DNA of 64,000 bases from an uncultured Acidobacteriota bacterium (GCA_963711875.1 CAVQFW010000006.1:227040-291039), one strand, 5' to 3'; shown: positions 26,725 to 37,758, counted from the stretch's first letter. Translations and numbers: made by a program. Notes: generated from the sequence alone by a model not told the origin.

Positions 26725-27648
26725 GTGAGCGACCGAATTCCATTTCGCGTTCAACCCATGCTCGCGACGCTCGTCCGCGCGCCGTTCCACAAGCCCGGCT
26801 GGGTCTACGAGGAAAAATACGATGGCATTCGAATCCTCGCTTACAAAGAAGGCAGCCGCGTGCGGTTGGTCTCAAGAAACGAAATCGATCGAACCAGCGG
26901 ATTTCCCGGAATTGCCGATGCAGTCCGCGCGCTCAAGCCCGCCACCCTTTTGCTAGATGGCGAAGTCGTAGTGTTCGATCGGAAAAAAGTGTCGCGATTC
27001 CAATTGCTGCAGAAGGGAAAGGGCCACGCTGCGTACGCCGTTTTCGATTGCCTCTACCGCGCGGGAAAAGATTTGCGCCGGGAGCCGCTTTCGATTCGGC
27101 GCGTCGAAATGGAGAAATCGCTGGGTACGAATAGCACGCTGATTCCTTCGCGTCGCCTCGCAAAGAATGGTCTCGAAGCTTTCGAGGAAGCGAAGCGGCG
27201 AGGTTTCGAGGGCCTCGTCGCAAAGGATCTCGCCTCGCCTTATGTCGAAAAGCGCTCGAATGCCTGGCTGAAGGTCAAGGTCCATCAGGAAGATGAATTC
27301 GTGATCGGAGGAATCACGAAACCCGAAGGCGCGCGAAAATATTTTGGTGCGCTGCTGCTGGGGGCGTATCAGGCCGGACAATTGCACTACGTCGGGAAAG
27401 TGGGCACCGGGTTCGACGAAAGCGCGCTTGCATCGCTCTATAAAACATTTCGATCGCTCGTGTCCCAACGGTCGCGGTTCGTGGAACTCCTGCGCGAGAA
27501 AGGCGTCACATATCTCGAGCCAAAACTGGTGGCGCAAATCTCGTTTCAGGAGTGGACGGCAGAAATGAAACTGCGCCAGCCCGTTTTTCTGGGATTGCGC
27601 GATGACAAGAAGCCCAAGGAAGTTCAGCTGCCGGAGCCGCAAAAATGA
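26725..27648 (+). CDS. ligD: ATP-dependent DNA ligase (LigD ligase domain as a separate gene)
   Basis: PMLATLV...GWVYEEKYDGIRILAY (KxDG adenylation motif I) and LLLDGEVVVFD. 307 aa. Confidence 0.9.
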   Translation: MSDRIPFRVQPMLATLVRAPFHKPGWVYEEKYDGIRILAYKEGSRVRLVSRNEIDRTSGFPGIADAVRALKPATLLLDGEVVVFDRKKVSRFQLLQKGKGHAAYAVFDCLYRAGKDLRREPLSIRRVEMEKSLGTNSTLIPSRRLAKNGLEAFEEAKRRGFEGLVAKDLASPYVEKRSNAWLKVKVHQEDEFVIGGITKPEGARKYFGALLLGAYQAGQLHYVGKVGTGFDESALASLYKTFRSLVSQRSRFVELLREKGVTYLEPKLVAQISFQEWTAEMKLRQPVFLGLRDDKKPKEVQLPEPQK

Positions 27649-28562
27649 AGAAGGCCCAAGCGAAATCAGCAAGCGCGAAGAAGTTTCCGGTGAACATTTC
27701 GAATCCGGACAAAGTTTTCTGGCCGGCCGAAGGGTACACGAAAAGCGATCTGGCGGAATTTTACCTCGCGATCTTCCCGAAGCTCGCGCCTTACGTAAAA
27801 GATCGTATCCTGACGCTCGAGCGCTGCCCGGACGGAATGGCCGGCGAATGTTTCTATCAAAAAGAGTTGCCCAAAGGCATGCCGGCCGGTACGCCGACGG
27901 AACGAATCAAGAACGAAGGAGGGAGCCGCCCCTTCACAAACTATGTAGTTGGCGGCGCGCTCGAGACTCAACTCGCGCTCGTCAATCTCGGCTGCATTGC
28001 GGTTCACGCGATGGGTGGCCGCGCGAGCTCACCGCGCCAGCCCGACTGGGTGTGCTTCGATCTCGATCCCGAATCGGGGAAATTTGCGGACGCAGCGAAG
28101 GCAGGGCTCTACGTCAGGGAAGCACTTGACGCGCTGAAACTCGACTCATTTCCGAAGACCTCGGGAAGTCGCGGCATGCACGTCTTCGTGCCGATTCGCG
28201 TGGGGCCGGATGTGAGCGACGTGCTGACGTTCGCGCAGGAGTTCGTTGCGCGAGTAGCCGCAGCTCATCCGAAGGAGTTAACCGTCGAGCATTCCATTGC
28301 GGCTCGAAAAGGACGCGTCTACCTGGATCCGTTTCGAAATGGCTTTGGCCAGACGGTCGTGACGCCTTATTCGGTGCGACGGAAGCCGAAAGCGCCGGTC
28401 TCGACGCCGCTCGCATGGTCCGAGGCAAAGCCGGGGCTTGTGCCCTCCGATTTCAACATCGGGAATTTTGCAGCACGTGCCAGACGCGCTGATCCGTGGA
28501 AGGATTTCTTTCGCAGCCGGCAGTCGCTCGAACCGGCTATCCAGCGGTTAAAAAAACTCTGA
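27645..28562 (+). CDS. LigD polymerase/primase domain protein (separate gene)
   Basis: ISNPDKVFWPAEGYTKSDLAEFY...LTLERCPDG...KTSGSRGMHVFVP. ATGA stop/start overlap with the ligase gene. Confidence 0.9.
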   Translation: MKKAQAKSASAKKFPVNISNPDKVFWPAEGYTKSDLAEFYLAIFPKLAPYVKDRILTLERCPDGMAGECFYQKELPKGMPAGTPTERIKNEGGSRPFTNYVVGGALETQLALVNLGCIAVHAMGGRASSPRQPDWVCFDLDPESGKFADAAKAGLYVREALDALKLDSFPKTSGSRGMHVFVPIRVGPDVSDVLTFAQEFVARVAAAHPKELTVEHSIAARKGRVYLDPFRNGFGQTVVTPYSVRRKPKAPVSTPLAWSEAKPGLVPSDFNIGNFAARARRADPWKDFFRSRQSLEPAIQRLKKL

Positions 28563-28633: not shown

Positions 28634-29173
28634 TCAGTCCGCCCCAGCTTTCTTCGACTCCAGTAGGGAAGAAATCTCGTTGGAATCTGGATTCCCACTC
28701 GCGGCGGCCGAATTTTCGATTTTGAAAATGCTCCGCCTGGCTACAAGATCCGATGCCCACAAGAAGATATCGAAAAGCCGGGCGCGATCGAGATTGTCGA
28801 AGCCCCGGACAGGTCGCACCAATTCTCCGGCCTGCGCCACGCACTGCTGCAGAAAGCGATCGATGGCGACCGACGTGACAACGTCCGAATCCTGCAGCGG
28901 ATTCGCATTGCACCGTTCGAGCTTCTCGTAACAGTGCGTGATGAAATGGCTGATGCAAAAAAAACGCAAGGCGAGCAGTCCGGCCGCCGCATTTACGCAA
29001 TTCGGCGTGTCGCATCGAATCCACTTCTTCGACGATGGATAGTTTTCTTCCCCTGATTTCACAGGTTCCACGGAATCGTCTGTCATGGCCCTCATACCCC
29101 TGTATTTTTCGGCTACGAATAGCTCGCGCGTTGGTTTTTCTGTGCGTTGCCGTTCAGCGATTTGCATTGTCAT
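28634..29173 (-). CDS. Hypothetical Cys/His-rich protein (179 aa from ATG 29173)
   Basis: Cluster WIRCDTPNC...FFCISHFITHCYEKLERC. The ATG overlaps the upstream stop as TGATG (29171-29175). Confidence 0.4.
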   Translation of the reverse strand: MTMQIAERQRTEKPTRELFVAEKYRGMRAMTDDSVEPVKSGEENYPSSKKWIRCDTPNCVNAAAGLLALRFFCISHFITHCYEKLERCNANPLQDSDVVTSVAIDRFLQQCVAQAGELVRPVRGFDNLDRARLFDIFLWASDLVARRSIFKIENSAAASGNPDSNEISSLLESKKAGAD

Positions 29174-29622
29174 CAGCAAACCGGCGCCGTCAATGCCGGC
29201 AGCAGCGAATCCTGCAAGTTCGGAAGTGCAGCTTCGTATGTGTGAACCCTCGTGCACACGTCAATCAACGGGGCGATCATCTTCAGAACTGCCGCCGAGC
29301 TCTCCCAGCGGTTTCCGGATGCGTCCTTCTCCGATCTCCACAGACTCATCACCAGAATTAGCCGCGGTTCCTTATGGGAGCTCAGCACGATCGCCCCCGC
29401 GAAGCCTCGTTGCTTTTTCAAATGCTCCATCAGTTCGCCCTGGGCGCAACTTCGCAAATCGCCGATTTTGCCGGGCTGAGCGATGAATTCCACCGAGCGC
29501 GCATTCAACGTTCGAAATCCCAGATTTCCGTTTGGCGTCAAAGCGGTTCTCGCTTCCCAGAGGTTAGAATTGCAAACCACGTCTTCGATTCTTGCGGCTT
29601 CGGTATCTATCGCTCTGCTCAT
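29173..29622 (-). CDS. Hypothetical protein with ABM/Dabb-like (ferredoxin-like) C-terminal domain
   Basis: ATG 29622 is preceded by GGGAGA at 9-nt spacing. FAGAIVLSSHKEPRLILVMSLWRSEKDA resembles antibiotic-biosynthesis-monooxygenase-fold proteins. Confidence 0.45.
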   Translation of the reverse strand: MSRAIDTEAARIEDVVCNSNLWEARTALTPNGNLGFRTLNARSVEFIAQPGKIGDLRSCAQGELMEHLKKQRGFAGAIVLSSHKEPRLILVMSLWRSEKDASGNRWESSAAVLKMIAPLIDVCTRVHTYEAALPNLQDSLLPALTAPVC

Positions 29623-29665
29623 TTCGCTCGCTCTCCCTTTGGGTCCTCGTCGCGATGGCGGGGAA

Positions 29666-29708
29666 GCGCATCCCGGTTCGTTCGGGGTAGGGACGCCCCG
29701 GGATGCGC
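29666..29708. promoter_or_regulatory. 11-bp perfect inverted repeat (stem-loop or operator)
   Basis: GCGCATCCCGG (29666-29676) pairs with CCGGGATGCGC (29698-29708) across a 21-nt spacer. It lies 44-86 nt upstream of the ABM-like gene start. Confidence 0.4.
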
Positions 29709-29955
29709 CTGGTGCTGGGGAAGTTCGAGCGTTGCCATCTTTCAGACCGAGATCCTGAAATTGCTTCACCAAAAAATTGACCATTACTCGGAAGTAGTGC
29801 GCTCAAAGCGCGAATCGTTTCAATTCGGGAATACTTTTTTCGTAGCTACCCGCGGACGCGAAGCGAATCGGCTCGGCGCTCCAGTCCTAGGACGGCTCAG
29901 CCTCATTGCGCTTGATTTCATAGGGGGATATACTTCGTGCCCTCATGAGGGGCAT

Positions 29956-30549
29956 GTGGAATTCTTCTCGTTTGACGAGGCCTATCTTAAACGGCTCCGG
30001 GACAGGGACTTCCCGACGGAGCAGCACTTTGTCACCTATTTCAGCCGCCTCCTGCTGATCAAGCTGCGGTCACGCCTACGTTCCTCCCAAGCCGTAGAAG
30101 ACATACGCCAGGAGACGTTTGTGCGCGTGCTCAAGGCCGTTCAGGCCCCGGGGACGATTCGCTCCGCAGAGGGCCTCGGTTCGTTTGTTAACTCCATATG
30201 TAACAATGTTTTACAGGAGTATTACCGCTCGTCCGCGCGCTCCGTCTCAAGTGACGATACTCCGCTTGACCCTCCCGATGAGAGCATCGATCTCGACGGA
30301 ATGCTGGTGGCAAAGCAGACCCAGGAGCAGGTAAAGCTAACGCTTTCAAAGCTTTCCGAGAAAGAGCGGCGTTTGCTCCGCGCAATGTTCTTCGAGGATA
30401 AAGATAAGGACGAGATTTGCCAGGACTTCGGAGTTGACCGGGATTATTTGCGGGTTCTGCTGCACCGGGCCAAGCAGAGTTTTCGCACCCTGTACGAGCA
30501 AGCCGGGCCGCCCGGACCGGTCGGCCTGGGGCATTCTGGCCACGGATGA
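29956..30549 (+). CDS. ECF-type RNA polymerase sigma-70 family factor
   Basis: Region 2 (IRQETFVRVLKAV...FVNSICNNVLQEYYR) and region 4 (LSEKERRLLRAMFFEDKDKDEICQDFGVDRDYLRVLLHRAKQSF). GTG 29956 is the first plausible start that does not overlap the minus-strand genes. Confidence 0.8.
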   Translation: MEFFSFDEAYLKRLRDRDFPTEQHFVTYFSRLLLIKLRSRLRSSQAVEDIRQETFVRVLKAVQAPGTIRSAEGLGSFVNSICNNVLQEYYRSSARSVSSDDTPLDPPDESIDLDGMLVAKQTQEQVKLTLSKLSEKERRLLRAMFFEDKDKDEICQDFGVDRDYLRVLLHRAKQSFRTLYEQAGPPGPVGLGHSGHG

Positions 30550-30582
30550 AACGATTTACGCTCCCAACTCACTACTGGGAGG

Positions 30583-31305
30583 ATGAAAACTATGAACCAT
30601 TCTGAAGCCGTGCGGCTGAAAGCTGCCGAGAAATACCTCCTGGGAGAACTGAGCGCCGAGCTGCGCGACCAGTATGAGGACCATTATTTTGGATGTGCGG
30701 AGTGCGCGCAGGATATTTCCGCCGGAGCGGTGTTCGTCGCTAACGCGCGAGATGTTTGGCGTACCGAGCCGCTTGCCGGAACTTCCTCTGAACCGGCAGC
30801 GCGACCCGGGAGAATTCGCTCTGGCGGTTGGTGGAACGCTGTGCTGCGGCCGGCTTTCGTCGTCCCCGCGCTCGCTCTTCTGTTGATCGTTGCTGGATAT
30901 CAGAATGCAGTGACGATTCCGCATCTGCGAACGATCGCATCGCAATCGGAAACGGCTCAAACGCTGCCTTCATTCTCGCTGATCGCACAGAATTCGCGGG
31001 GCGCGTCTCCGCTCACAATTTCTGTGCCGGCCGGCAAACCTTTCAGCCTGTTTATTGATATCCCGCCGCAGAGCCAGTTTGCATCGTTCGTCTGCGAATT
31101 TCAGAACGAATCCGGGGCGCCGGAACTGTCATTAAATGTATCCGCGCAAGAAGCGAAGCAAACCGTCCAGCTTTTGGTTCCCGCCGGGCGCTTGGCATCG
31201 GGTAGGCACGTGCTTGTCGTGCGAGGAATAGGCTCGCCTGCAAAGGCCGATGCGGATAAGATAGGCCTCGTAAGTTATCCATTCTCTCTCGTATACACAA
31301 AATAG
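30583..31305 (+). CDS. Anti-sigma factor, zf-HC2 type, single-pass membrane protein
   Basis: H-x3-C-x2-C motif (HYFGCAECAQ), a TM helix (AFVVPALALLLIVAGY), and a ~135-aa extracytoplasmic domain. It lies directly downstream of the ECF sigma gene. Confidence 0.7.
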   Translation: MKTMNHSEAVRLKAAEKYLLGELSAELRDQYEDHYFGCAECAQDISAGAVFVANARDVWRTEPLAGTSSEPAARPGRIRSGGWWNAVLRPAFVVPALALLLIVAGYQNAVTIPHLRTIASQSETAQTLPSFSLIAQNSRGASPLTISVPAGKPFSLFIDIPPQSQFASFVCEFQNESGAPELSLNVSAQEAKQTVQLLVPAGRLASGRHVLVVRGIGSPAKADADKIGLVSYPFSLVYTK

Positions 31306-31335
31306 CGGCTTCCGCTTATTGAGGAGACGACTCCG

Positions 31336-32109
31336 ATGCTGAACGAAACCGTTCAAAGGACCTATATCTTCAACGGCCACGGTCACGCGCTGAGCGGACA
31401 CATCACCCAACCTTTCGATCACCAAATCGAAGTGCAAGCCGGAATGTCGCTTCCGACCGCCGGCGGAGTAGGACATGCGCGGGTCGAAAATTTTCGGTTC
31501 CAGGAGTACGTTTCGTTTTCGGCCGGGCACACGTATGTAGCGGGCAGCAAAAGCAGCCACGGTACATACACGACGCTCGTCACGGCGACGGTGGAGAAAC
31601 TGAACATTCTGGATGTCGTGACCGCCGATCGGGTGGTCGCGCGCCTCGCTTCCAGCCACAAACTGGACGAGCCAGAGCCCCGCATCACCTTGCTCGGCAG
31701 CCACATCGAAAATCTGAAAATCGCCGGATCCCGCGTTCACATCGAGTTCGACTGCGATGTGTTTCAGCGCAACACCACGTTCGACAGCCTGAAAAAAGAG
31801 TTTGACGCCAGCGCCGGATTCCGCAAAATGGCTTCGGATCCCTTTGTTACGATGGAGCCAAAGGTACCAGTCGATCCGCGGGGAGTGTTTTTGTGCTCGC
31901 TGGTGAAGGAATTGAAGATCGATTGTGCCGGAATAAAGCCAGTGGGACACGCCTTCGAAATTCCGGAATTCGGGAGGGTGTACATCGGCGAGGTCTTGGC
32001 GCAATACGGCAAGCGCACGGTGACGATGCTCCGCGTCGAACTCGGCTGCCCCGTCGTCGGGACGATGATGGTCTCGCAAGGCGCCGGCAATGGACATCCG
32101 TTGCCTTAG
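31336..32109 (+). CDS. Hypothetical protein (257 aa), no signal peptide, no recognised domain
   Basis: Clean ORF with balanced composition, beta-rich appearance and many His/Gly near the N-terminus (FNGHGHALSGH). Sits between the anti-sigma and CHAT genes. Confidence 0.55.
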   Translation: MLNETVQRTYIFNGHGHALSGHITQPFDHQIEVQAGMSLPTAGGVGHARVENFRFQEYVSFSAGHTYVAGSKSSHGTYTTLVTATVEKLNILDVVTADRVVARLASSHKLDEPEPRITLLGSHIENLKIAGSRVHIEFDCDVFQRNTTFDSLKKEFDASAGFRKMASDPFVTMEPKVPVDPRGVFLCSLVKELKIDCAGIKPVGHAFEIPEFGRVYIGEVLAQYGKRTVTMLRVELGCPVVGTMMVSQGAGNGHPLP

Positions 32110-34559
32110 TATGCGGCCTTACATTCGGACTGGCTTTGCTGGTAGCCGGCTGCAAGCGTAAGACAGCTCCGGATCCTCGAAGTACCTACAACGATGCATG
32201 GGCGAAGCTGAAACGCGGCGATCTCAGTGGATCGCGTTCAAACGTTGATGCGATTCGCTGGAAAGAGCTCCCACCGAATACCGAGTGGCCGTCCCGCTTT
32301 CGAGTGTTAGAAGCTGAAATTTTGTGGCGCCAGGGAATGAACAGCGAAGCCCTGGCGCTTCTGGAAGCACCCATTCCGAGCCAGTTCGCGACCTGCGACA
32401 TTTCAGTCTGGCGGAAAATGACGCAGGGAGCCGCCGATTCCTATCTTGAACGTTACGCCGACTCCATGAATCTTCTTACGGAAGCGGAGTCCCTCGCCAA
32501 GTCAGGCTGCCCTGAATTATTGGGGCAGGTCGCGCTTCGAAAGGGAACGCTCGCATTCGTTCGCGGCGACCCGGCAGCCGCCCAAGTGGAATATCTGACG
32601 GCGCTGCGAATCGCCAGGAGTATCAACGATCCATTCCTTGAGGCTTCAGCTCTCGGCAACTTGGGCATGAACGCTACGAAACGGGAACACTACGATGAAT
32701 CAATTGATTGGAATCGCGCGGCGCTCGATCTCTCGCAAACGATAGGCGCCGAGGGTTCGAAGGCCGTGATCCTCGGGAACACCGGTTGGAGCTATCTCGA
32801 AATGGGCGATTACGACCACGCACTCGCGCTGTTTCGACAGGCGGATGAAGCCTCCGGCAAGGCCGGATCGCTGAGCGCGCAAGCGGACTGGGAAATCAAT
32901 ATCGGAAACGTTTATTTGGCTCAGGGAAACTATGATGCGGCCCAGAAAGCATATCAGCAGGCACTTAACCTTGCGAATCGGCTCGGCGATGACGGCGCGA
33001 AGGCCAAATGTTATGACAATCTTGCGCTGGTAGCGCTGGAGCGGGGAGAGTTCGACTCAGCCCAGAGCTACAATGACAAGGTTCCTCCGCTTGTGCGCGT
33101 TCATTCAGACCTCGTCGTGTCGATTCTCGTGACGGGCCGCATTGACGCGATGAAACAAAGATACGCCGAAGCTGAGGAAGTATTCGAATCCGTGATTCGC
33201 GACGACGAAGCCCCCACTTCACTTCGCTGGGAAGCGCAGGCCCGTCTCGCAAAAGTGTATGCCTCGGAGGGGAAGCACGCGAACGCCGACCGGCAATTTC
33301 GGCAAGCCATCAATACATTCGCGAATGCGCGCCGTGCGGTGCAAAGCGAGGAACTGAGGCTCTCGTTCCTTTCGAACGCGATTTTGTTTTACAACGATTA
33401 CATCGAATTTCTAATTTCGCTGGGCCGCCCTGAGGACGCGCTGGAAGTGGCTGAAGTGAGCCGGGCGCAAACGCTGGCCGAGGGCCTGGGGCTCAGCTCG
33501 AAAATTTCGTTTCCGCTTCCGAATTTTCATCCGCGCTCGGTTGCGCAGCGTTTCGGGGCGACGCTCTTGTTCTACTGGCTCGGTGCCCAGCACTCCTATC
33601 TATGGGCAGTCACGGGAACTGGTACGTCGCTTCTTACCCTTCCCCCCGCCTCTGAAATTGAGCCGCTTATCAAAGCGTACCGGGCAGCTCTGCTCGGCCC
33701 GCGCGACGTGCTCGAAACGTCGAACGCGCAAGGAATCAAACTGTACGAGTTGCTGGTTGCGCCGGCGCAGAAGCTGGTTCCATCTGGTTCGCGCGTGGTA
33801 ATCCTGCCCGACGCAGGACTCTACGACTTGAACTTTGAGACGCTGCTGGTTCCAGGCGACCGGCTGCATTACTGGATCGAGGATGCGGTTGTCGCGAATG
33901 CGAATTCGCTGGTTCTGCTGGCTGCTTCAGCGGGGGAGCAACCTCAGAAACTGAAGAAGCTACTGCTGATTGGCGATCCGGTCTCGCCGGGCGCGGAGTT
34001 TCCCGACTTGCCGCAAGCGGCCGCCGAAATGGGAGATGTGGAACGATATTTTGCGGCGCCGGATCGCACCGTGCTCGCGCGACAGCAAGCCACCGCTGCG
34101 GCATATCTTGGCAGCCGGCCGGCACAGTATTCTTTCATCCATTTCGTCGCGCACGGCACGGCCAGCCGGACGAGCCCTCTCGATTCGGCCGTGATCCTCA
34201 CGCGCCAGGGAGATTCATACAAACTCTACGCGCGCGATATTGTGGCGCAGCCGCTGCGCGCCGATCTCGTCACGATTTCGGCGTGTCATGGCGCGGGCGA
34301 GCGTACGTACTCGGGCGAAGGACTCGTCGGACTCACGTGGGCATTCTTGCGCGCAGGCGCTCACGGTGTAATCGCTGCACTTTGGGAGGTTAATGACAAT
34401 TCCACGCCCGAGTTAATGGACGATCTCTACGCCGAAATCAAAAAAGGATCGCCGCCCGACGCTGCCTTGCACCACGCCAAGCTAAAGCTGCTTCACTCCG
34501 GCACCGTCTACCAAAAGCCCTTCTATTGGGCGCCGTTCGAGATCTACCGCGGCCACTAG
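31893..34559 (+). CDS. TPR-repeat CHAT-domain (caspase-like) protease, probable lipoprotein; start codon unresolved
   Basis: Lipoprotein-type signal RRRQWTSVALVCGLTFGLALLVAGC (Cys codon 32151-32153), ~450 aa of TPR repeats, then a CHAT domain with the His/Cys dyad context FIHFVAHGT and LVTISACHGAGE. The only in-frame ATG/GTG upstream of the signal peptide is 31893, which overlaps the previous gene by 217 nt. Confidence 0.8.
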   Translation: MLAGEGIEDRLCRNKASGTRLRNSGIREGVHRRGLGAIRQAHGDDAPRRTRLPRRRDDDGLARRRQWTSVALVCGLTFGLALLVAGCKRKTAPDPRSTYNDAWAKLKRGDLSGSRSNVDAIRWKELPPNTEWPSRFRVLEAEILWRQGMNSEALALLEAPIPSQFATCDISVWRKMTQGAADSYLERYADSMNLLTEAESLAKSGCPELLGQVALRKGTLAFVRGDPAAAQVEYLTALRIARSINDPFLEASALGNLGMNATKREHYDESIDWNRAALDLSQTIGAEGSKAVILGNTGWSYLEMGDYDHALALFRQADEASGKAGSLSAQADWEINIGNVYLAQGNYDAAQKAYQQALNLANRLGDDGAKAKCYDNLALVALERGEFDSAQSYNDKVPPLVRVHSDLVVSILVTGRIDAMKQRYAEAEEVFESVIRDDEAPTSLRWEAQARLAKVYASEGKHANADRQFRQAINTFANARRAVQSEELRLSFLSNAILFYNDYIEFLISLGRPEDALEVAEVSRAQTLAEGLGLSSKISFPLPNFHPRSVAQRFGATLLFYWLGAQHSYLWAVTGTGTSLLTLPPASEIEPLIKAYRAALLGPRDVLETSNAQGIKLYELLVAPAQKLVPSGSRVVILPDAGLYDLNFETLLVPGDRLHYWIEDAVVANANSLVLLAASAGEQPQKLKKLLLIGDPVSPGAEFPDLPQAAAEMGDVERYFAAPDRTVLARQQATAAAYLGSRPAQYSFIHFVAHGTASRTSPLDSAVILTRQGDSYKLYARDIVAQPLRADLVTISACHGAGERTYSGEGLVGLTWAFLRAGAHGVIAALWEVNDNSTPELMDDLYAEIKKGSPPDAALHHAKLKLLHSGTVYQKPFYWAPFEIYRGH

Positions 34560-34597: not shown

Positions 34598-35845
34598 TCA
34601 GCGCGGATTCTCAAGCAGCATCGCGATGCCCTGTCCGCCGCCGATGCACGCAGACGCGACGCCGTAACGTTTCTCCGAACGCTCCAATTCGCGCGCCAGC
34701 GTCACCGCCAGCCTAATCCCGGTAGCAGCCAGCGGATGCCCGATCGCAATCGCGCCGCCGTTCACATTCAGCTTTCCCCGATCGAGCTTCAGCTCCCGCT
34801 CGACGCCGATCACCTGCGCCGCAAACGCCTCGTTGATTTCGAAGCGATCAATCGCGTCCAGCGACAATCCCACGCCATCCAAAAGCCTTCGAATCGCCGG
34901 CGCCGGACCGATGCTCATGATTTCAGGCGGCACACCGACGGTCGCCACAGCCACAATCCTCGCGAGCGGTTTTTTCTCCCGGGATTGGGCATAACTGCCC
35001 GAGCCCACAAGCGCCGCAGCCGCTCCGTCCACAATCGCCGAACTATTTCCCCCGGTCTGCACGCCGCCAAATGCCGGCCGTATTTTCGCCAAAGTCTCAT
35101 ACGAGGAAGCCCGAATGTGCGTGTCCACGGCAAGATTCTCGACGCCTTTCGGCAGCCGAATCCCGCGCGGTTTGTAACCGCTCAGCTCAAAAGTTTCGCT
35201 TACGACCGGCACGATCTCGCCGGACAAAAAGCATGTCGTCTGCGCCGCCAGCGCGCGCGAAAAACTCAATTCCGCGAAACGGTCCACGTCCTCGCGCGTA
35301 ATCTTGTACTCGCGCGCAATCGTCTCCGCCGTATCTCCCATCGTCACGTCAGCCGCCGGATCGAGCAGCGCCTCCCACAGAAAATCCTTGAACTCCACTT
35401 GCCCCATCCGAAATCCGCTGCGATGCGTGTACGCCGCGATCGGATTACGGCTCATCGATTCCGCACCGACGCACAGCCCCAGCTCGATTTTCTTCAAACG
35501 GATCGCGTCGGCTGCTTGTCCGATGGCTTCGATCCCGGTGCCGCAAACGCGCTGCACCAGCAGCGCAGGCCGATCCAGCGGCACGCCGGAATAAAGTCCA
35601 ATATGCCGCGGCAGCACGTACGCATCGAAACTAGCTTGCGCCACGCTTCCCGCGATCACCGCGCCCACGTCCGTCGGCGAAATCTTTGCACGCTCGAAAA
35701 CTCCGCGCGCCGCTTTGATGCCAAGATCGGTCGGCGACACGAGACCAAGCGCGCCGGTGTAGTCCACGAACGGCGTGCGCACGCCATCGAGAAGCCAGAT
35801 ATCGTCATACGCAATGAATATCCCGCTCTTTTCGTTTGCCATCAT
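34598..35845 (-). CDS. Acetyl-CoA C-acyltransferase (thiolase)
   Basis: VQRVCGTGIEA (active-site Cys), NVNGGAIAIGHPLAATG, ACIGGGQGIAMLLE. ATGA overlap with the upstream ligase gene. Confidence 0.9.
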   Translation of the reverse strand: MMANEKSGIFIAYDDIWLLDGVRTPFVDYTGALGLVSPTDLGIKAARGVFERAKISPTDVGAVIAGSVAQASFDAYVLPRHIGLYSGVPLDRPALLVQRVCGTGIEAIGQAADAIRLKKIELGLCVGAESMSRNPIAAYTHRSGFRMGQVEFKDFLWEALLDPAADVTMGDTAETIAREYKITREDVDRFAELSFSRALAAQTTCFLSGEIVPVVSETFELSGYKPRGIRLPKGVENLAVDTHIRASSYETLAKIRPAFGGVQTGGNSSAIVDGAAAALVGSGSYAQSREKKPLARIVAVATVGVPPEIMSIGPAPAIRRLLDGVGLSLDAIDRFEINEAFAAQVIGVERELKLDRGKLNVNGGAIAIGHPLAATGIRLAVTLARELERSEKRYGVASACIGGGQGIAMLLENPR

Positions 35846-37758
35846 GATTTTCCCGTGATCCGAAAAATAAACTGCGAAGGCCGCGCGCTATACATCTCTT
35901 CGACGAGCGCCGCGCGATGCTCGAGCACGGCCCGCTGGTTCAACGACCCTTTGTCTGTCATTTCGCGCGCGTCGAGCGACGGCGGCTCCTCGAGTACAAT
36001 CGCCCGCTGCACTCGATTCGAACTTCCGGTCGACTGCGTTGCCAATGCAGTCAACAAAGATTGAAAACGCTCCCTCACCGCATCATGCCGCAAGATGTCC
36101 GCGGTTGAAGCACCCGGCGCACCCGGCGCGATCTCCGGACACAGCGCGCAACACGCGGCAAGATCTGCAAAGATCATCATCCCGATTTCATCGCGATCGT
36201 GACCGGTAATAACCACGTCTCGCACAAACGGCGCAAAGTGGCTGATAATCCTCGCCCGCAAAGGGCCCACGCTCACCCACGTCCCCGTCGCAAGCTTGAA
36301 GTCTTCCGAGAATCGGCCATCGAAGAGAAAGCCCTTATTCACGTCCGCCGGATCGACGAATCGAACCGCATCCCCAAATTTGTAGAAGCCATCCTCGTCG
36401 AATGCTTTCTGCGTGAGTTCCGGCTGCCGCCAATACCCGGGCGTGATATTGGGTCCGCGCACTCGCACTTCCAATTTATTGCCTTGCGGGACGAGCTTCG
36501 CTTCGACGCCCGGAATCGGAATGCCGATCACGCCTGCGCGATCCGTCTCCCACGTCGTCTGAATCGCCATCGGCGCAGTTTCCGTCGCGCCGAGTCCCGT
36601 CACCATCACCACTCGCTCGCCGCAAGTTTCAACTGCAAGCTCGCGGTATGCATCCCACACCGGCTGCGACAAACCAGCCCCAGCGTAAAAAAGAAGTTTC
36701 AGCCGGCTGAAAAACTTTTCGCGCAGCCCGCGATCGCCGCGCAGCGCCGGCAGCAAATCTTCATAACCTTTCGGCACATTGAAAAATACGGTCGGAGCTA
36801 TTCCGCGTAGATTGCGGATCGTCTCCTCGATGAACCCCGCTCCGGGTTTGCCTTCGTCAATATAAAAACTGCCGCCGTTGTAGAGCGCGATGCCGATATT
36901 GTGATTGCCGCCGAACGTGTGATTCCACGGCAGCCAATCCACCAGCACCGGCGGCTCATCCTGCAAAAATCCAAAAACCTGCGCGATCATTTGCTGGTTG
37001 CAGCAGATCATTCGATGCGTGTTGACGACGGCCTTCGGCATCCCCGTCGATCCGGAGGTGAAAAGGAATTTCGCGGGACTATCGGGATCGATTCCTTCGT
37101 GAGCCGCCTCGATGGTGGAAGTTGGTTTCGTCGATAGGAGTTCCTCGAACAGCGTCGCCCTTCGAAATTCGGGCAGCGCCGCCGTCACGACGAGTTCCAT
37201 CTCGGCGCTCACCGCCGCTTCAATCGCGCGCCGGTATTTTTCGCCGTCCGAAACAAAGACCATTCCGGGCGTCAGCAGCGCGAGGCAATGCCGCAGTTGG
37301 GCAAGATCCTTTGACACAAGCGAATACACTGGCGAAAGATGCGCCGTCGGAATTCCGGCGTGCTGGCCTCCGAGCATGAGTAATAAATGTTCGAGGTCGT
37401 TCTCTGAAAGTATCGCCACGGGCCGCTCGGCGGAAAATCCCCGATCGACGAGCGCCTGCCCAATGCTTCGCGCAGCGGCGTAAACCTCCGCATAAGTGAG
37501 CGAGCGCCAGTTTCCATTCACATCGCGCTTCGCCGCGCAAATTCTTTCGGGCGCAATCGTCGCCCAGTGCGCAAGCCGGTCGGTAAGAACTCTCGGGTAC
37601 GCACCGAGAGGTTCGTCCGAAGAAACTATGATTGAGCCGTCCGCGAGGCGCTCCAGTGACGCGCCTGAACTGCGCAGCCTTACTTGGCGCACCCGAGTGC
37701 CGGATTTTTTCGCCGTGCCCGCGACGGGCTCCCGCTCACTCACAACAGCCTTTGGCAT
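35842..37758 (-). CDS. AMP-dependent CoA ligase, feruloyl-CoA-synthase-like
   Basis: FLFTSGSTGMPKAV AMP-binding motif. The N-terminal region (LGAYPRVLTDRLAHWATIAPERI...RSLTYAEVYAAARSIGQALVDRGFSAERPVAILSEN) closely resembles the Fcs family as I recall it. Confidence 0.8.
   Translation of the reverse strand: MPKAVVSEREPVAGTAKKSGTRVRQVRLRSSGASLERLADGSIIVSSDEPLGAYPRVLTDRLAHWATIAPERICAAKRDVNGNWRSLTYAEVYAAARSIGQALVDRGFSAERPVAILSENDLEHLLLMLGGQHAGIPTAHLSPVYSLVSKDLAQLRHCLALLTPGMVFVSDGEKYRRAIEAAVSAEMELVVTAALPEFRRATLFEELLSTKPTSTIEAAHEGIDPDSPAKFLFTSGSTGMPKAVVNTHRMICCNQQMIAQVFGFLQDEPPVLVDWLPWNHTFGGNHNIGIALYNGGSFYIDEGKPGAGFIEETIRNLRGIAPTVFFNVPKGYEDLLPALRGDRGLREKFFSRLKLLFYAGAGLSQPVWDAYRELAVETCGERVVMVTGLGATETAPMAIQTTWETDRAGVIGIPIPGVEAKLVPQGNKLEVRVRGPNITPGYWRQPELTQKAFDEDGFYKFGDAVRFVDPADVNKGFLFDGRFSEDFKLATGTWVSVGPLRARIISHFAPFVRDVVITGHDRDEIGMMIFADLAACCALCPEIAPGAPGASTADILRHDAVRERFQSLLTALATQSTGSSNRVQRAIVLEEPPSLDAREMTDKGSLNQRAVLEHRAALVEEMYSARPSQFIFRITGKS

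What the first reader, a model, noticed from the sequence alone, without database searches (positions are those of the whole stretch)
29956..34559. ECF sigma / zf-HC2 anti-sigma / orphan 257-aa protein / TPR-CHAT lipoprotein: candidate protease-linked signalling module
Four co-directional genes have 30-33 nt gaps or overlaps. The CHAT domain (caspase-like; His in FVAHGT, Cys in ISACHG) is exported as a probable lipoprotein with ~450 aa of TPR repeats. It would therefore sit in the same compartment as the anti-sigma factor's ~135-aa external domain. One hypothesis is that the CHAT protease performs the site-1-like cleavage, or acts as a ligand-gated sensor, that releases the ECF sigma. The intervening cytoplasmic 257-aa protein has no domain I recognise. 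I know of no experimentally characterised mechanism for CHAT-associated ECF systems.
Basis: inference. Interest (0 to 1): 0.65.

Follow-up and report, generated by a model that had tools for sequence, protein, structure and literature searches.

The report
ECF sigma cassette with CHAT lipoprotein
A soil Acidobacteriota genome carries a widely conserved, uncharacterised gene cassette pairing a stress-type sigma factor and its membrane anti-sigma factor with a cytoplasmic DUF8256 protein and an exported caspase-like (TPR-CHAT) lipoprotein, which may be the protease that switches the sigma factor on.

Summary
The four genes are present at the stated coordinates with the stated domains. The ECF sigma is at 29956-30549, the HxxxCxxC single-pass anti-sigma at 30583-31305, the 257-aa protein at 31336-32109, and the TPR-CHAT protein with a lipobox runs to 34559.

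Two details need correcting:
- The 257-aa protein is not an orphan. It belongs to DUF8256 / choice-of-anchor P, with about 1,650 50%-identity clusters.
- The CHAT gene most likely starts at GTG 31893, 217 nt inside the DUF8256 gene. Selection keeps this overlap open in about 50 of 61 related loci.

- Anti-sigma, DUF8256 and CHAT keep the same order in 61 of 61 Acidobacteriota loci.
- The sigma gene is adjacent in 59 of 61.
- The CHAT His/Cys dyad is invariant in 56 of 56 orthologs.

Two divergent genes (ABM-like and Cys-rich) and a covarying leader hairpin also belong to the locus.

That the CHAT cleaves the anti-sigma remains inference. Precedents exist: DdvA/DdvS has a fused periplasmic TPR-CHAT, and craspase Csx29 cleaves Csx30 to relieve an ECF-like sigma.

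Verdict: a real, widespread, unstudied variant of a known kind.

The parts
29906..29934 (+). Promoter-like element TTGCGC-N17-TATACT, 21 nt upstream of the sigma start codon
   Evidence: TATACT is invariant in 51 related loci and lies 19-46 nt (mostly 20-26) before the start codon, with TTGC 18-20 nt upstream of it. The motif occurs once in the 64-kb window, against 0.04 expected. In the loci it occurs only upstream of sigma. Which sigma factor reads it is unknown.
29956..30549 (+). ECF (group IV) sigma factor, 197 aa, GTG start
   Evidence: Pfam Sigma70_r2 and r4_2; TIGR02937 63.4 bits against a cut-off of 42.9. The start column is conserved. The gene is adjacent in 59 of 61 loci.
30583..31305 (+). 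Single-pass ZAS-type anti-sigma factor, 240 aa. The HxxxCxxC motif is at nt 30682-30705, the TM helix at about 30829-30903, and the periplasmic Ig-like domain at 30904-31302.
   Evidence: zf-HC2 E = 4e-4, below the Pfam cut-off. The motif is invariant in 61 of 61 orthologs. The AF2 model shows three N-terminal helices, a TM helix and a beta sandwich with pLDDT 70-88. Fold search gives generic Ig/cupredoxin-like matches. The closest PDB sequence is RslA (3hug_B, E = 0.14).
30994..31002 (+). Conserved S138-R139-G140 in a low-confidence loop of the periplasmic region. This is a candidate cleavage site, by inference only.
   Evidence: S138 and R139 are invariant in alignment A4, which spans only close relatives (at least 61% identity to the window). 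SL..(N/T)(S/T)RG is conserved across the diverged loci. Residues 136-140 have pLDDT below 50.
31336..32109 (+). DUF8256 / choice-of-anchor P family protein, 257 aa, no signal peptide
   Evidence: NF040603 33 bits against a cut-off of 27. PF26784 = DUF8256 is on all homologs. There are 1,656 50%-identity clusters. The AF2 model has pLDDT 87 and is made of long beta hairpins plus three helices, with no PDB fold or sequence match.
31893..34559 (+). TPR-CHAT lipoprotein precursor, 888 aa as read from GTG 31893
   Evidence: CHAT E = 1.3e-49 plus TPR families. The dyad is invariant in 56 of 56 orthologs. Public gene calls truncate orthologs to 717-777 aa without a signal peptide.
31893..32109 (+). 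217-nt overlap in which the CHAT frame is the -1 frame of the DUF8256 gene. It encodes most of an Arg-rich N-terminal extension of about 65 aa.
   Evidence: Stops in the -1 frame over the last 70 codons, summed over 61 loci: 12 observed against 125 +/- 10 from synonymous resampling. The rest of the gene gives 364 against 595. Codon 186 ends in T or G in 40 of 40 loci, creating TTG or GTG. Gly183 is never GGC, giving a GGAG-like Shine-Dalgarno sequence 6 nt upstream. Synonymous diversity is not reduced.
32094..32153 (+). Hydrophobic h-region and lipobox (LVAG-C87)
   Evidence: A hydrophobic stretch followed by a small residue and Cys lies 30-57 nt after the DUF8256 stop in about 45 loci. Distant orthologs (L053, L052, L060) have ordinary short lipoprotein signal peptides.
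32295..33483 (+). TPR repeat region
   Evidence: Hits to TPR_12, TPR_2, TPR_1 and TPR_MalT; PDB consensus-TPR matches.
33735..34544 (+). CHAT caspase-like domain. His754 is at 34152-34154 and Cys798 at 34284-34286.
   Evidence: PF12770 169.7 bits; coordinates; conservation. The only PDB hits are marginal matches to Csx29 (E 0.5-1), and DdvA is not detected.
29173..29622 (-). Divergently transcribed gene A, about 149 aa, ABM-like
   Evidence: Pfam ABM 23.1 bits, exactly at the cut-off. Present in 47 of the 61 loci. The same layout is seen in diverged L070. Covered by a metatranscriptome contig spanning 29444-29709.
28634..29097 (-). Gene B, about 150 aa, Cys/His-rich (C-x4-C ... C-x2-H-x4-C) with a conserved NLDRARLFDILLWA motif. 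It matches no known family. The start codon is approximate.
   Evidence: Conserved in 48 of the 61 loci. No hits in Pfam, NCBIfam, PADLOC or PDB.
29665..29709 (-). Conserved RNA hairpin (12-bp stem) in the leader of gene A
   Evidence: 82.7% of cells are paired, against 28-50% when the partner is slid. Covariation score is 0.257 against at most 0.143. Six pairs have compensatory changes. G-U pairs form only on the minus strand. No Rfam match.

Best explanation
This is a conserved envelope-signalling cassette of soil Acidobacteriota.

Shown:
- An ECF sigma factor is encoded next to a ZAS-type single-pass anti-sigma factor with a periplasmic Ig-like domain.
- The adjacent co-directional genes encode a cytoplasmic DUF8256 protein and a TPR-CHAT protein.
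- The TPR-CHAT protein has a conserved lipobox and an invariant His/Cys dyad.
- Its reading frame starts about 72 codons inside the DUF8256 gene.

Inferred:
- The TPR-CHAT lipoprotein sits in the periplasm.
- Its TPR array senses a signal or holds the substrate.
- Its caspase-like domain then cuts the anti-sigma's periplasmic part. A candidate site follows the conserved Arg139 in the flexible S-R-G loop.
- This site-1-like cut would allow an RseP-type site-2 protease and cytoplasmic proteases to free the sigma factor.

On this reading the system works like M. xanthus DdvA split into two polypeptides. DUF8256 works together with the CHAT protein, possibly through the Arg-rich cytoplasmic N-terminal extension of the CHAT precursor. 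Its biochemical role is unknown.
For: - Order and strand are conserved in 61 genome loci, down to 32% DUF8256 identity, and in more distant family members.
- The dyad is invariant in 56 of 56 orthologs, so catalysis is under selection.
- The lipobox is conserved, and distant orthologs have canonical lipoprotein signal peptides. This places the CHAT in the same compartment as the anti-sigma's 133-aa domain.
- The anti-sigma HxxxCxxC motif is present in 61 of 61 orthologs.
- S-R-G is conserved in a low-confidence loop.
- DUF8256 and CHAT are linked by a selected overlap and by a DUF8256-CHAT-like fusion protein, P0128.
- There are precedents for CHAT proteases acting on sigma inhibitors: DdvA (PMC11506125) and Csx29-Csx30-CASP-sigma (PMC10028731).
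- Pieces of the locus, including the DUF8256/CHAT junction at 32032-32212, appear in soil metatranscriptome contigs.
Against: - There is no direct evidence that the CHAT touches or cleaves the anti-sigma. Gene neighbourhood fits equally well with the CHAT and DUF8256 being sigma-controlled outputs.
- DUF8256 has no signal peptide, so it is separated from the mature CHAT by the membrane, and its role is unexplained.
- The DUF8256-CHAT-like fusion occurs without any sigma or anti-sigma, so the pair can work independently of ECF signalling.
- Neither the CHAT nor the sigma shows detectable sequence similarity to DdvA or DdvS in the PDB.
- CHAT cleavage specificity is unknown, and the R139 site is a guess.
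- The lipoprotein precursor has an atypical 86-aa presequence.
- Even for DdvA, CHAT-mediated cleavage has not been demonstrated.
Confidence: 0.4

Rival explanations
1. Output model. The sigma/anti-sigma pair is an ordinary ZAS or envelope-stress switch that senses something else, such as redox through the zinc site or a ligand of the Ig-like domain. DUF8256 and the TPR-CHAT lipoprotein are the genes it controls. They would form an effector pair for envelope proteolysis, conflict or defence.
For: - ECF operons often carry their own target genes.
- DUF8256 fused to a CHAT-like domain exists on a conjugative-element-like contig with no sigma or anti-sigma.
- L054 keeps anti-sigma, DUF8256 and CHAT with no sigma gene immediately upstream, and phmmer finds no sigma ORF in L054 or L055.
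- A single invariant promoter precedes the whole operon.
Against: - The anti-sigma is never separated from DUF8256 and CHAT in the 61 loci.
- No PADLOC defence model matches.
- An output-only role does not explain why the exported protease always accompanies an anti-sigma with a matching periplasmic domain.
- Input and output roles are not mutually exclusive, because positive feedback is possible.
Confidence: 0.3
2. Shield model. The TPR-CHAT lipoprotein binds the anti-sigma periplasmic domain through its TPR array and protects it from other proteases, as RseB protects RseA. It would be released on signal. Its own protease activity would be directed at other substrates or at itself.
For: - A large TPR array of about 450 aa suits protein binding.
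- In DdvA, the bulky TPR-CHAT domain sterically blocks RseP (PMC11506125).
Against: The invariant dyad shows that catalysis matters. No binding data exist.
Confidence: 0.12
3. Frameshift model. DUF8256 and TPR-CHAT are made as one fusion protein by -1 programmed ribosomal frameshifting near the end of the DUF8256 gene. The product would be cytoplasmic DUF8256, then a TM segment, then periplasmic TPR-CHAT.
For: - The CHAT frame is exactly the -1 frame of DUF8256.
- A natural DUF8256-CHAT-like fusion exists.
- There is no start codon near the signal peptide.
Against: - The -1 frame is kept open for about 70 codons, far more than a late shift would need.
- A TTG or GTG codon plus a GGAG-like motif is selected at codons 183-187, which points to independent initiation.
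- No conserved slippery heptamer was seen in the aligned codons.
- Distant orthologs have separate genes with normal signal peptides.
Confidence: 0.05
4. The four genes are chance neighbours with no shared function.
For: None beyond the lack of experimental data.
Against: The order and strand are the same in 61 loci with saturated synonymous sites and in more distant members. The two downstream reading frames overlap under selection.
Confidence: 0.01

Closest known systems
Myxococcus xanthus DdvS/DdvA (ECF sigma with a transmembrane anti-sigma carrying a periplasmic TPR-CHAT domain; PMC6061681, PMC11506125)
   Same: - An ECF sigma paired with an anti-sigma that has an N-terminal zinc-binding domain and a single TM helix.
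- A TPR-CHAT module with a His/Cys dyad on the periplasmic side.
- The CHAT proposed as the site-1 protease acting before RseP.
   Different: - Here the TPR-CHAT is a separate lipoprotein, and the anti-sigma has its own small Ig-like periplasmic domain.
- A DUF8256 gene is inserted between them and overlaps the CHAT gene.
- No CBASS or CRISPR genes are nearby.
- No sequence similarity to DdvA or DdvS chains was detected.
- The host is Acidobacteriota. DdvA-like proteins were reported only in Myxococcota and one Comamonas.
Type III-E craspase: Cas7-11 with Csx29 (TPR-CHAT), Csx30 and CASP-sigma (PMC10028731)
   Same: A TPR-CHAT protease cleaves an inhibitor of an ECF-like sigma factor and so relieves inhibition. 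This is an experimentally supported link from a CHAT protease to an ECF-like sigma.
   Different: - That system is cytoplasmic, RNA-guided and CRISPR-associated.
- Csx30 is not a ZAS membrane anti-sigma.
- The NCBIfam Csx29 model scores only 16.8 bits against a cut-off of 300.
- No cas genes are present.
E. coli DegS / RseA / RseP / sigma-E regulated intramembrane proteolysis
   Same: A periplasmic protease makes a site-1 cut in a single-pass anti-sigma, and site-2 cleavage then releases the ECF sigma. This is the proposed logic here.
   Different: - DegS is a PDZ serine protease anchored in the inner membrane, not a caspase-like lipoprotein.
- RseA is not a ZAS protein.
- There is no DUF8256 partner.
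Bacterial gasdermin with an adjacent caspase-like or CHAT protease
   Same: A beta-rich protein of about 250 aa without a signal peptide is encoded immediately next to a CHAT-type protease.
   Different: - The DUF8256 model has no gasdermin match in the PDB fold search.
- The CHAT here is exported while DUF8256 is not.
- No PADLOC hit.

Membership tests
ECF (group IV) sigma-70 family | [quoted passage not shown] | tested here: met
   Sigma70_r2 26.7 bits (cut-off 24). r4_2 25.3 bits (cut-off 25.7, marginal). TIGR02937 63.4 bits (cut-off 42.9). Length 197 aa.
A specific published ECF group (ECF Hub / Casas-Pastor 2021) | A score above the group-specific HMM threshold, plus the group's conserved genomic context. 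| not testable with these tools
   The group HMMs are not available here. No NCBIfam equivalog passes its cut-off. The main text of PMC7826278 mentions no CHAT-associated group, and no supplementary files are held.
ZAS-type (zf-HC2) anti-sigma factor | An H-x3-C-x2-C zinc motif in an N-terminal anti-sigma domain. | tested here: met
   H34-x3-C38-x2-C41 is present in 61 of 61 orthologs. The Pfam zf-HC2 score of 20.9 bits is just under the 22.2 cut-off.
ZAS-type (zf-HC2) anti-sigma factor | Binds and inhibits its cognate sigma. | not testable with these tools
   No multimer prediction or experiment was possible. The only support is adjacency to sigma in 59 of 61 loci.
CHAT domain (PF12770, caspase-like clan CD) | Profile match and a catalytic His/Cys dyad. 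| tested here: met
   169.7 bits against a cut-off of 24. His754 and Cys798 are invariant in 56 of 56 orthologs. Proteolytic activity was not tested.
Bacterial lipoprotein (Lgt/LspA substrate) | A lipobox [LVI][ASTVI][GAS]C directly after a hydrophobic h-region. | tested here: met
   LVAG-C87 in the window. G or A precedes the Cys after a hydrophobic stretch in about 45 loci.
Bacterial lipoprotein (Lgt/LspA substrate) | A short N-terminal signal peptide of about 15-30 aa, beginning at the start codon. | tested here: not met
   The nearest usable starts lie 76-86 codons before the Cys in the window and 72-101 codons before it in the main clade. Distant orthologs such as L053 do have normal signal peptides.
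DdvA-type anti-sigma | The N-terminal ZAS domain, TM helix and periplasmic TPR-CHAT are all in one polypeptide. | tested here: not met
   The anti-sigma (240 aa) and the TPR-CHAT (888 aa) are separate genes, with DUF8256 between them. No sequence match to DdvA in the PDB.
Craspase (type III-E) Csx29 system | A Csx29 equivalog associated with Cas7-11, Csx30 and Csx31. | tested here: not met
   NF041237 scores 16.8 bits against a cut-off of 300. No PADLOC hits apart from generic TPR models. The neighbouring genes are LigD and fatty-acid metabolism genes.
DUF8256 (PF26784) / choice-of-anchor P (NF040603) | A profile match above the curated cut-off. | tested here: met
   NF040603 33 bits against a cut-off of 27, covering residues 15-135. 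PF26784 is precomputed on all 120 listed homologs. That model is absent from the local Pfam copy, which explains the lack of a hit.
Bacterial gasdermin | The gasdermin fold. | tested here: not met
   A Foldseek search of the PDB with the pLDDT-87 model gave best TM-scores of at most 0.24. The top hits were outer-membrane barrels at low probability, and no gasdermin appeared among the 50 best matches listed.

The most novel reading that the evidence does not exclude
The cassette is a new, widespread type of trans-envelope protease switch with three features:
- The TPR-CHAT lipoprotein is the dedicated site-1 protease of a ZAS anti-sigma.
- Its overprinted Arg-rich N-terminal extension, encoded inside the DUF8256 gene, is functional and couples the protease precursor to cytoplasmic DUF8256.
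- Cytoplasmic and periplasmic states are therefore integrated before the sigma factor is released.

DUF8256 would then be a new CHAT-partner domain, which would also explain the DUF8256-CHAT fusions on mobile elements.
Probability: 0.15. Interest if true: 0.8.

Novelty: new variant of a known kind. Interest (0 to 1): 0.6.

Why it matters
ECF sigma factors are among the main bacterial signal-transduction systems, yet the activating protease is known for only a few groups.

A caspase-like CHAT domain acting as site-1 protease has so far been proposed only for DdvA. That idea is still unproven because the DdvA signal is unknown.

The cassette described here separates the protease from the anti-sigma, so each part can be expressed, mutated and assayed on its own. 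It occurs in many Acidobacteriota lineages, which are abundant but poorly understood soil bacteria.

It also assigns a first genomic context to DUF8256, a family of about 1,650 50%-identity clusters.

Finally, it exposes a systematic annotation error. Public gene calls cut off the N-terminus of the CHAT protein, which removes its lipoprotein signal and makes an exported protease look cytoplasmic.

Tried and rejected
- **Programmed -1 frameshift joining DUF8256 to CHAT.** Considered because the frames fit. Rejected as the main reading because the frame is open for about 70 codons and a start codon plus a Shine-Dalgarno-like motif is selected.
- **Tat export or hitch-hiking.** The RRRQW seen in the window is not a conserved twin-arginine motif in orthologs.
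- **Dual-coding constraint on synonymous sites.** No reduction was found (0.53 against 0.53). Only openness and the start codon are selected. The excess positive charge of the extension is weak (+6.7 against +4.7 expected).
- **DUF8256 as a gasdermin or a known fold.** No match by PDB fold search, profile search or PADLOC.
- **Rfam match for the leader hairpin.** None. RNAalifold on the raw MAFFT alignment predicted nothing because of misaligned rows. A stem specified by hand was then counted instead.
- **A second copy of the sigma-promoter motif that would reveal a regulon.** None in the window or in the loci.
- **Anti-sigma periplasmic domain search, to ask whether it ever occurs without a CHAT.** The word-index search returned only close relatives, so it was uninformative.
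- **Gene B profile against the PDB.** Nothing significant.
- **Metatranscriptome contigs.** They show that pieces of the locus are present in RNA libraries, but they are too sparse to define transcripts.

Full report
**Observation**

ORF listing and profile scans confirm four co-directional genes on the plus strand.
- An ECF sigma factor lies at 29956-30549 (Sigma70_r2 and r4_2; TIGR02937 63 bits against a cut-off of 42.9).
- A 240-aa protein lies at 30583-31305. It has a near-threshold zf-HC2 hit and one hydrophobic helix.
- A 257-aa protein without a signal peptide lies at 31336-32109.
- A TPR-CHAT protein ends at 34559 (CHAT E = 1.3e-49). It has His754 in FVAHGT, Cys798 in ISACHG and a lipobox LVAG-C87.

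The gaps are 33 and 30 nt, and the last two genes overlap. The sigma GTG start at 29956 sits in the same alignment column as the ORF start in most orthologs.

**Corrections to the observation**

The 257-aa protein is not an orphan.
- It passes the NCBIfam choice-of-anchor P model (33 bits, cut-off 27).
- All 120 listed homologs carry Pfam PF26784, named DUF8256.
- A profile search of 1.84 billion representative proteins finds 1,656 clusters at E <= 1e-3 and 490 at E <= 1e-30.
- Nearly all of the 150 best, the only ones listed, are 240-300 aa, and the match begins within the first ten residues. The family therefore generally lacks a signal peptide.

Its AlphaFold model is confident (pLDDT 87, pTM 0.86). 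It consists of long beta hairpins plus three helices. It has no meaningful fold or sequence match in the PDB.

**Co-conservation**

A genome-collection scan with a DUF8256 alignment returned 61 species-level loci. Almost all are Acidobacteriota MAGs labelled Acidiferrales, Acidoferrum, Terriglobia, Bryobacteraceae or Solibacteraceae.

All 61 have anti-sigma, DUF8256 and TPR-CHAT in the same order and strand. This holds down to 32% DUF8256 identity.
- The sigma gene is adjacent in 59 of the 61.
- L003 and L010 have it split.
- phmmer finds no sigma ORF in L054 or L055. L054, which was checked directly, has a ComM-like gene immediately upstream of the anti-sigma instead.
- L058 carries a deletion that fuses the DUF8256 N-terminus to the CHAT C-terminus.

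More distant family members (P0237/L068, P0262/L070, P0209) keep the same layout.

The CHAT His and Cys are invariant in 56 of 56 orthologs. The anti-sigma H-x3-C-x2-C motif is invariant in 61 of 61.

**A hidden N-terminus and a selected gene overlap**

In the window, no ATG, GTG or TTG lies between TTG 31923 and the lipobox Cys at 32151. The one exception is a TTG five codons before the Cys.

The same holds in about 45-50 of the 61 loci.
- The lipobox Cys lies 30-57 nt after the DUF8256 stop.
- The CHAT frame is the -1 frame of DUF8256.
- That frame is open for 88-148 codons upstream of the Cys.

Summed over all 61 loci, the last 70 codons of DUF8256 contain 12 stops in the -1 frame. Synonymous-codon resampling predicts 125 +/- 10. 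The rest of the gene has 364 against 595. The 12 stops all fall in L058 or in diverged loci, most of which have a CHAT start of their own after the DUF8256 stop.

Codon usage points to a start codon and a ribosome-binding site.
- Codon 186, which precedes the invariant Cys187, ends in T or G in 40 of 40 main-clade loci. CTT occurs 23 times and CTC never, although the background frequencies are 0.17 and 0.26. This creates a TTG or GTG in the CHAT frame.
- Gly183 is GGA, GGG or GGT and never GGC (background 0.44). This gives a GGAG-like motif 6 nt upstream of that start.

Synonymous diversity in the overlap is not reduced. The positive charge of the extension is only slightly above expectation. 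Selection therefore acts on openness and initiation rather than on the peptide sequence.

I conclude that the CHAT protein most likely starts at 31893. Its presequence would be about 86 aa: an Arg-rich hydrophilic part of about 65 aa, then the h-region and lipobox.

Public gene calls place the start 126-315 nt downstream of the DUF8256 stop, or only nine residues before the Cys. Either choice removes the signal. Distant orthologs such as L053 have ordinary lipoprotein signal peptides, which supports export.

**The locus is larger than four genes**

Two divergently transcribed genes are conserved.
- Gene A (29173-29622, minus strand, ABM-like at the Pfam cut-off) is in 47 of the 61 loci.
- Gene B (about 28634-29097, minus strand, Cys/His-rich, no known family) is in 48 of the 61 loci.
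- L070 also has two divergent genes of the same size and position.

The leader of gene A holds a 12-bp hairpin at 29665-29709 on the minus strand.
- It has compensatory changes.
- Its G-U pairs form only on that strand.
- 82.7% of cells are paired, against 28-50% when the partner is slid.

It has no Rfam match.

Upstream of sigma lies an element TTGC-N18-20-TATACT. Its TATACT is invariant in 51 loci and lies mostly 20-26 nt before the start codon. The element occurs once in the 64-kb window and nowhere else in the loci. It resembles a housekeeping promoter. Whether the ECF sigma reads it is unknown.

Soil metatranscriptome contigs cover parts of B, A with its leader, DUF8256, the DUF8256/CHAT junction and the CHAT gene. 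The evidence is thin but consistent with expression.

**Link between DUF8256 and CHAT**

One representative, P0128 (889 aa), is a DUF8256 domain fused to a divergent CHAT-like C-terminus.
- The Pfam CHAT hit has E = 0.0095.
- Its His and Cys align with those of the window protein.
- It is encoded beside type IV secretion and SSB genes, with no sigma factor.

Together with the selected overlap, this ties DUF8256 functionally to the CHAT rather than to the sigma/anti-sigma pair. P0209 carries a Tat-like leader, so some family members may be exported.

**Anti-sigma anatomy**

The AF2 model is modest overall (pLDDT 61). It shows three N-terminal helices, a TM helix and an eight-stranded beta sandwich at residues 140-240 (pLDDT 70-88). 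The fold matches are generic Ig/cupredoxin-like domains.

Between the membrane and the sandwich lies a low-confidence stretch. It contains the conserved SL..NSRG motif, in which S138 and R139 are invariant among the close relatives aligned in A4.

From general knowledge of clan CD peptidases, bacterial caspase homologues often cut after basic residues. R139 is therefore a candidate cleavage site. This is inference only.

**Mechanism**

The best-supported reading, at about 0.4, is that the TPR-CHAT lipoprotein is the periplasmic sensor and protease that makes the first cut in the anti-sigma. This would be a split version of DdvA. Site-2 and cytoplasmic proteolysis would follow, as in the DegS-RseA-RseP paradigm.

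The shown steps are domain identities, topology signals, dyad conservation, co-conservation and the overlap. The inferred steps are periplasmic location, the interaction, cleavage and sigma release.

The rivals are:
- Output model, about 0.3. DUF8256 and CHAT are sigma-controlled outputs. The sigma-free fusion supports this.
- Shield model, about 0.12. The CHAT protein has a non-cleaving, RseB-like protective role.
- Frameshift model, about 0.05. A -1 frameshift produces a fusion protein.

**Comparison with known systems**

- DdvS/DdvA (PMC6061681, PMC11506125) is the closest in concept. It fails the membership test, because that domain architecture is a single polypeptide. No sequence similarity was detected either.
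- Craspase Csx29-Csx30-CASP-sigma (PMC10028731) shows experimentally that a TPR-CHAT can relieve inhibition of an ECF-like sigma. That system is cytoplasmic and CRISPR-linked. The Csx29 model scores 16.8 bits against a cut-off of 300 here.
- The main text of the ECF re-classification describes no CHAT-associated group. The group HMMs could not be run.

**Verdict**

This is a real, widely conserved and uncharacterised cassette. It is a new variant of protease-linked ECF signalling. Two features had not been noticed before: DUF8256 as a CHAT partner, and a selected long gene overlap that hides the lipoprotein N-terminus. Interest is 0.6.

Noticed in passing
window 31893-32109 (+); also L001-L061, L067, L068, L070: The TPR-CHAT reading frame overlaps the 3' end of the DUF8256 gene by about 217 nt in the -1 frame. 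Stop codons there are about 10-fold depleted, and a TTG/GTG start with a GGAG-like motif is selected. Public gene calls truncate the protein and lose its lipoprotein signal.
   Followed up: yes
window 28634-29622 (-): Two further conserved genes are transcribed divergently from sigma. One is an ABM-like protein of about 149 aa. The other is a Cys/His-rich protein of about 150 aa with a conserved NLDRARLFDILLWA motif and no known family. They are present in 47 and 48 of the 61 loci, and L070 has two divergent genes of the same size and position.
   Followed up: partly
window 29665-29709 (-): A conserved 12-bp hairpin lies in the leader of the ABM-like gene, flanked by C-rich runs. It shows compensatory changes, and its G-U pairs form only on the minus strand. 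It has no Rfam match. One metatranscriptome contig ends exactly at 29709, and a relative's hairpin region had the highest contig depth seen.
   Followed up: partly
window 29906-29934 (+): A promoter-like element TTGCGC-N17-TATACT lies upstream of sigma. Its TATACT is invariant in 51 diverged loci at a nearly fixed distance from the sigma start. It is unique in the window. It looks like a housekeeping promoter rather than a typical ECF promoter.
   Followed up: partly
L064-L066, 8001-10670 (protein P0128): A natural fusion of DUF8256 to a divergent CHAT-like domain (889 aa) sits on contigs with VirB3, VirB4, TrbC and SSB genes. There is no sigma or anti-sigma nearby. This suggests a mobile-element version of the DUF8256-CHAT pair.
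   Followed up: partly
L058, 7001-7699: One related locus has a deletion that joins the first 73 or so residues of DUF8256 directly to the CHAT C-terminal region. It is probably a decayed copy.
   Followed up: no
L054, 4459-6975; L055: The two most divergent loci, a Bryobacteraceae MAG and a Terriglobia MAG, keep anti-sigma, DUF8256 and CHAT. phmmer finds no sigma ORF in either. L054 has a ComM/Mg-chelatase-like gene immediately upstream of the anti-sigma instead.
   Followed up: partly
window 26725-28562 (+): A split LigD-type non-homologous end-joining set lies directly upstream: an ATP-dependent ligase of 307 aa and a Prim-Pol of 305 aa with a 4-nt overlap. It is syntenic in L062, where a LigD_N gene precedes them. 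Thiolase and acyl-CoA synthetase genes lie downstream on the minus strand (34598-37758).
   Followed up: no
protein P0209 (no DNA held): One DUF8256 family member carries an N-terminal Tat-like leader (LTRKQFLD followed by a hydrophobic stretch). Some family members may therefore be exported, unlike the window protein.
   Followed up: no
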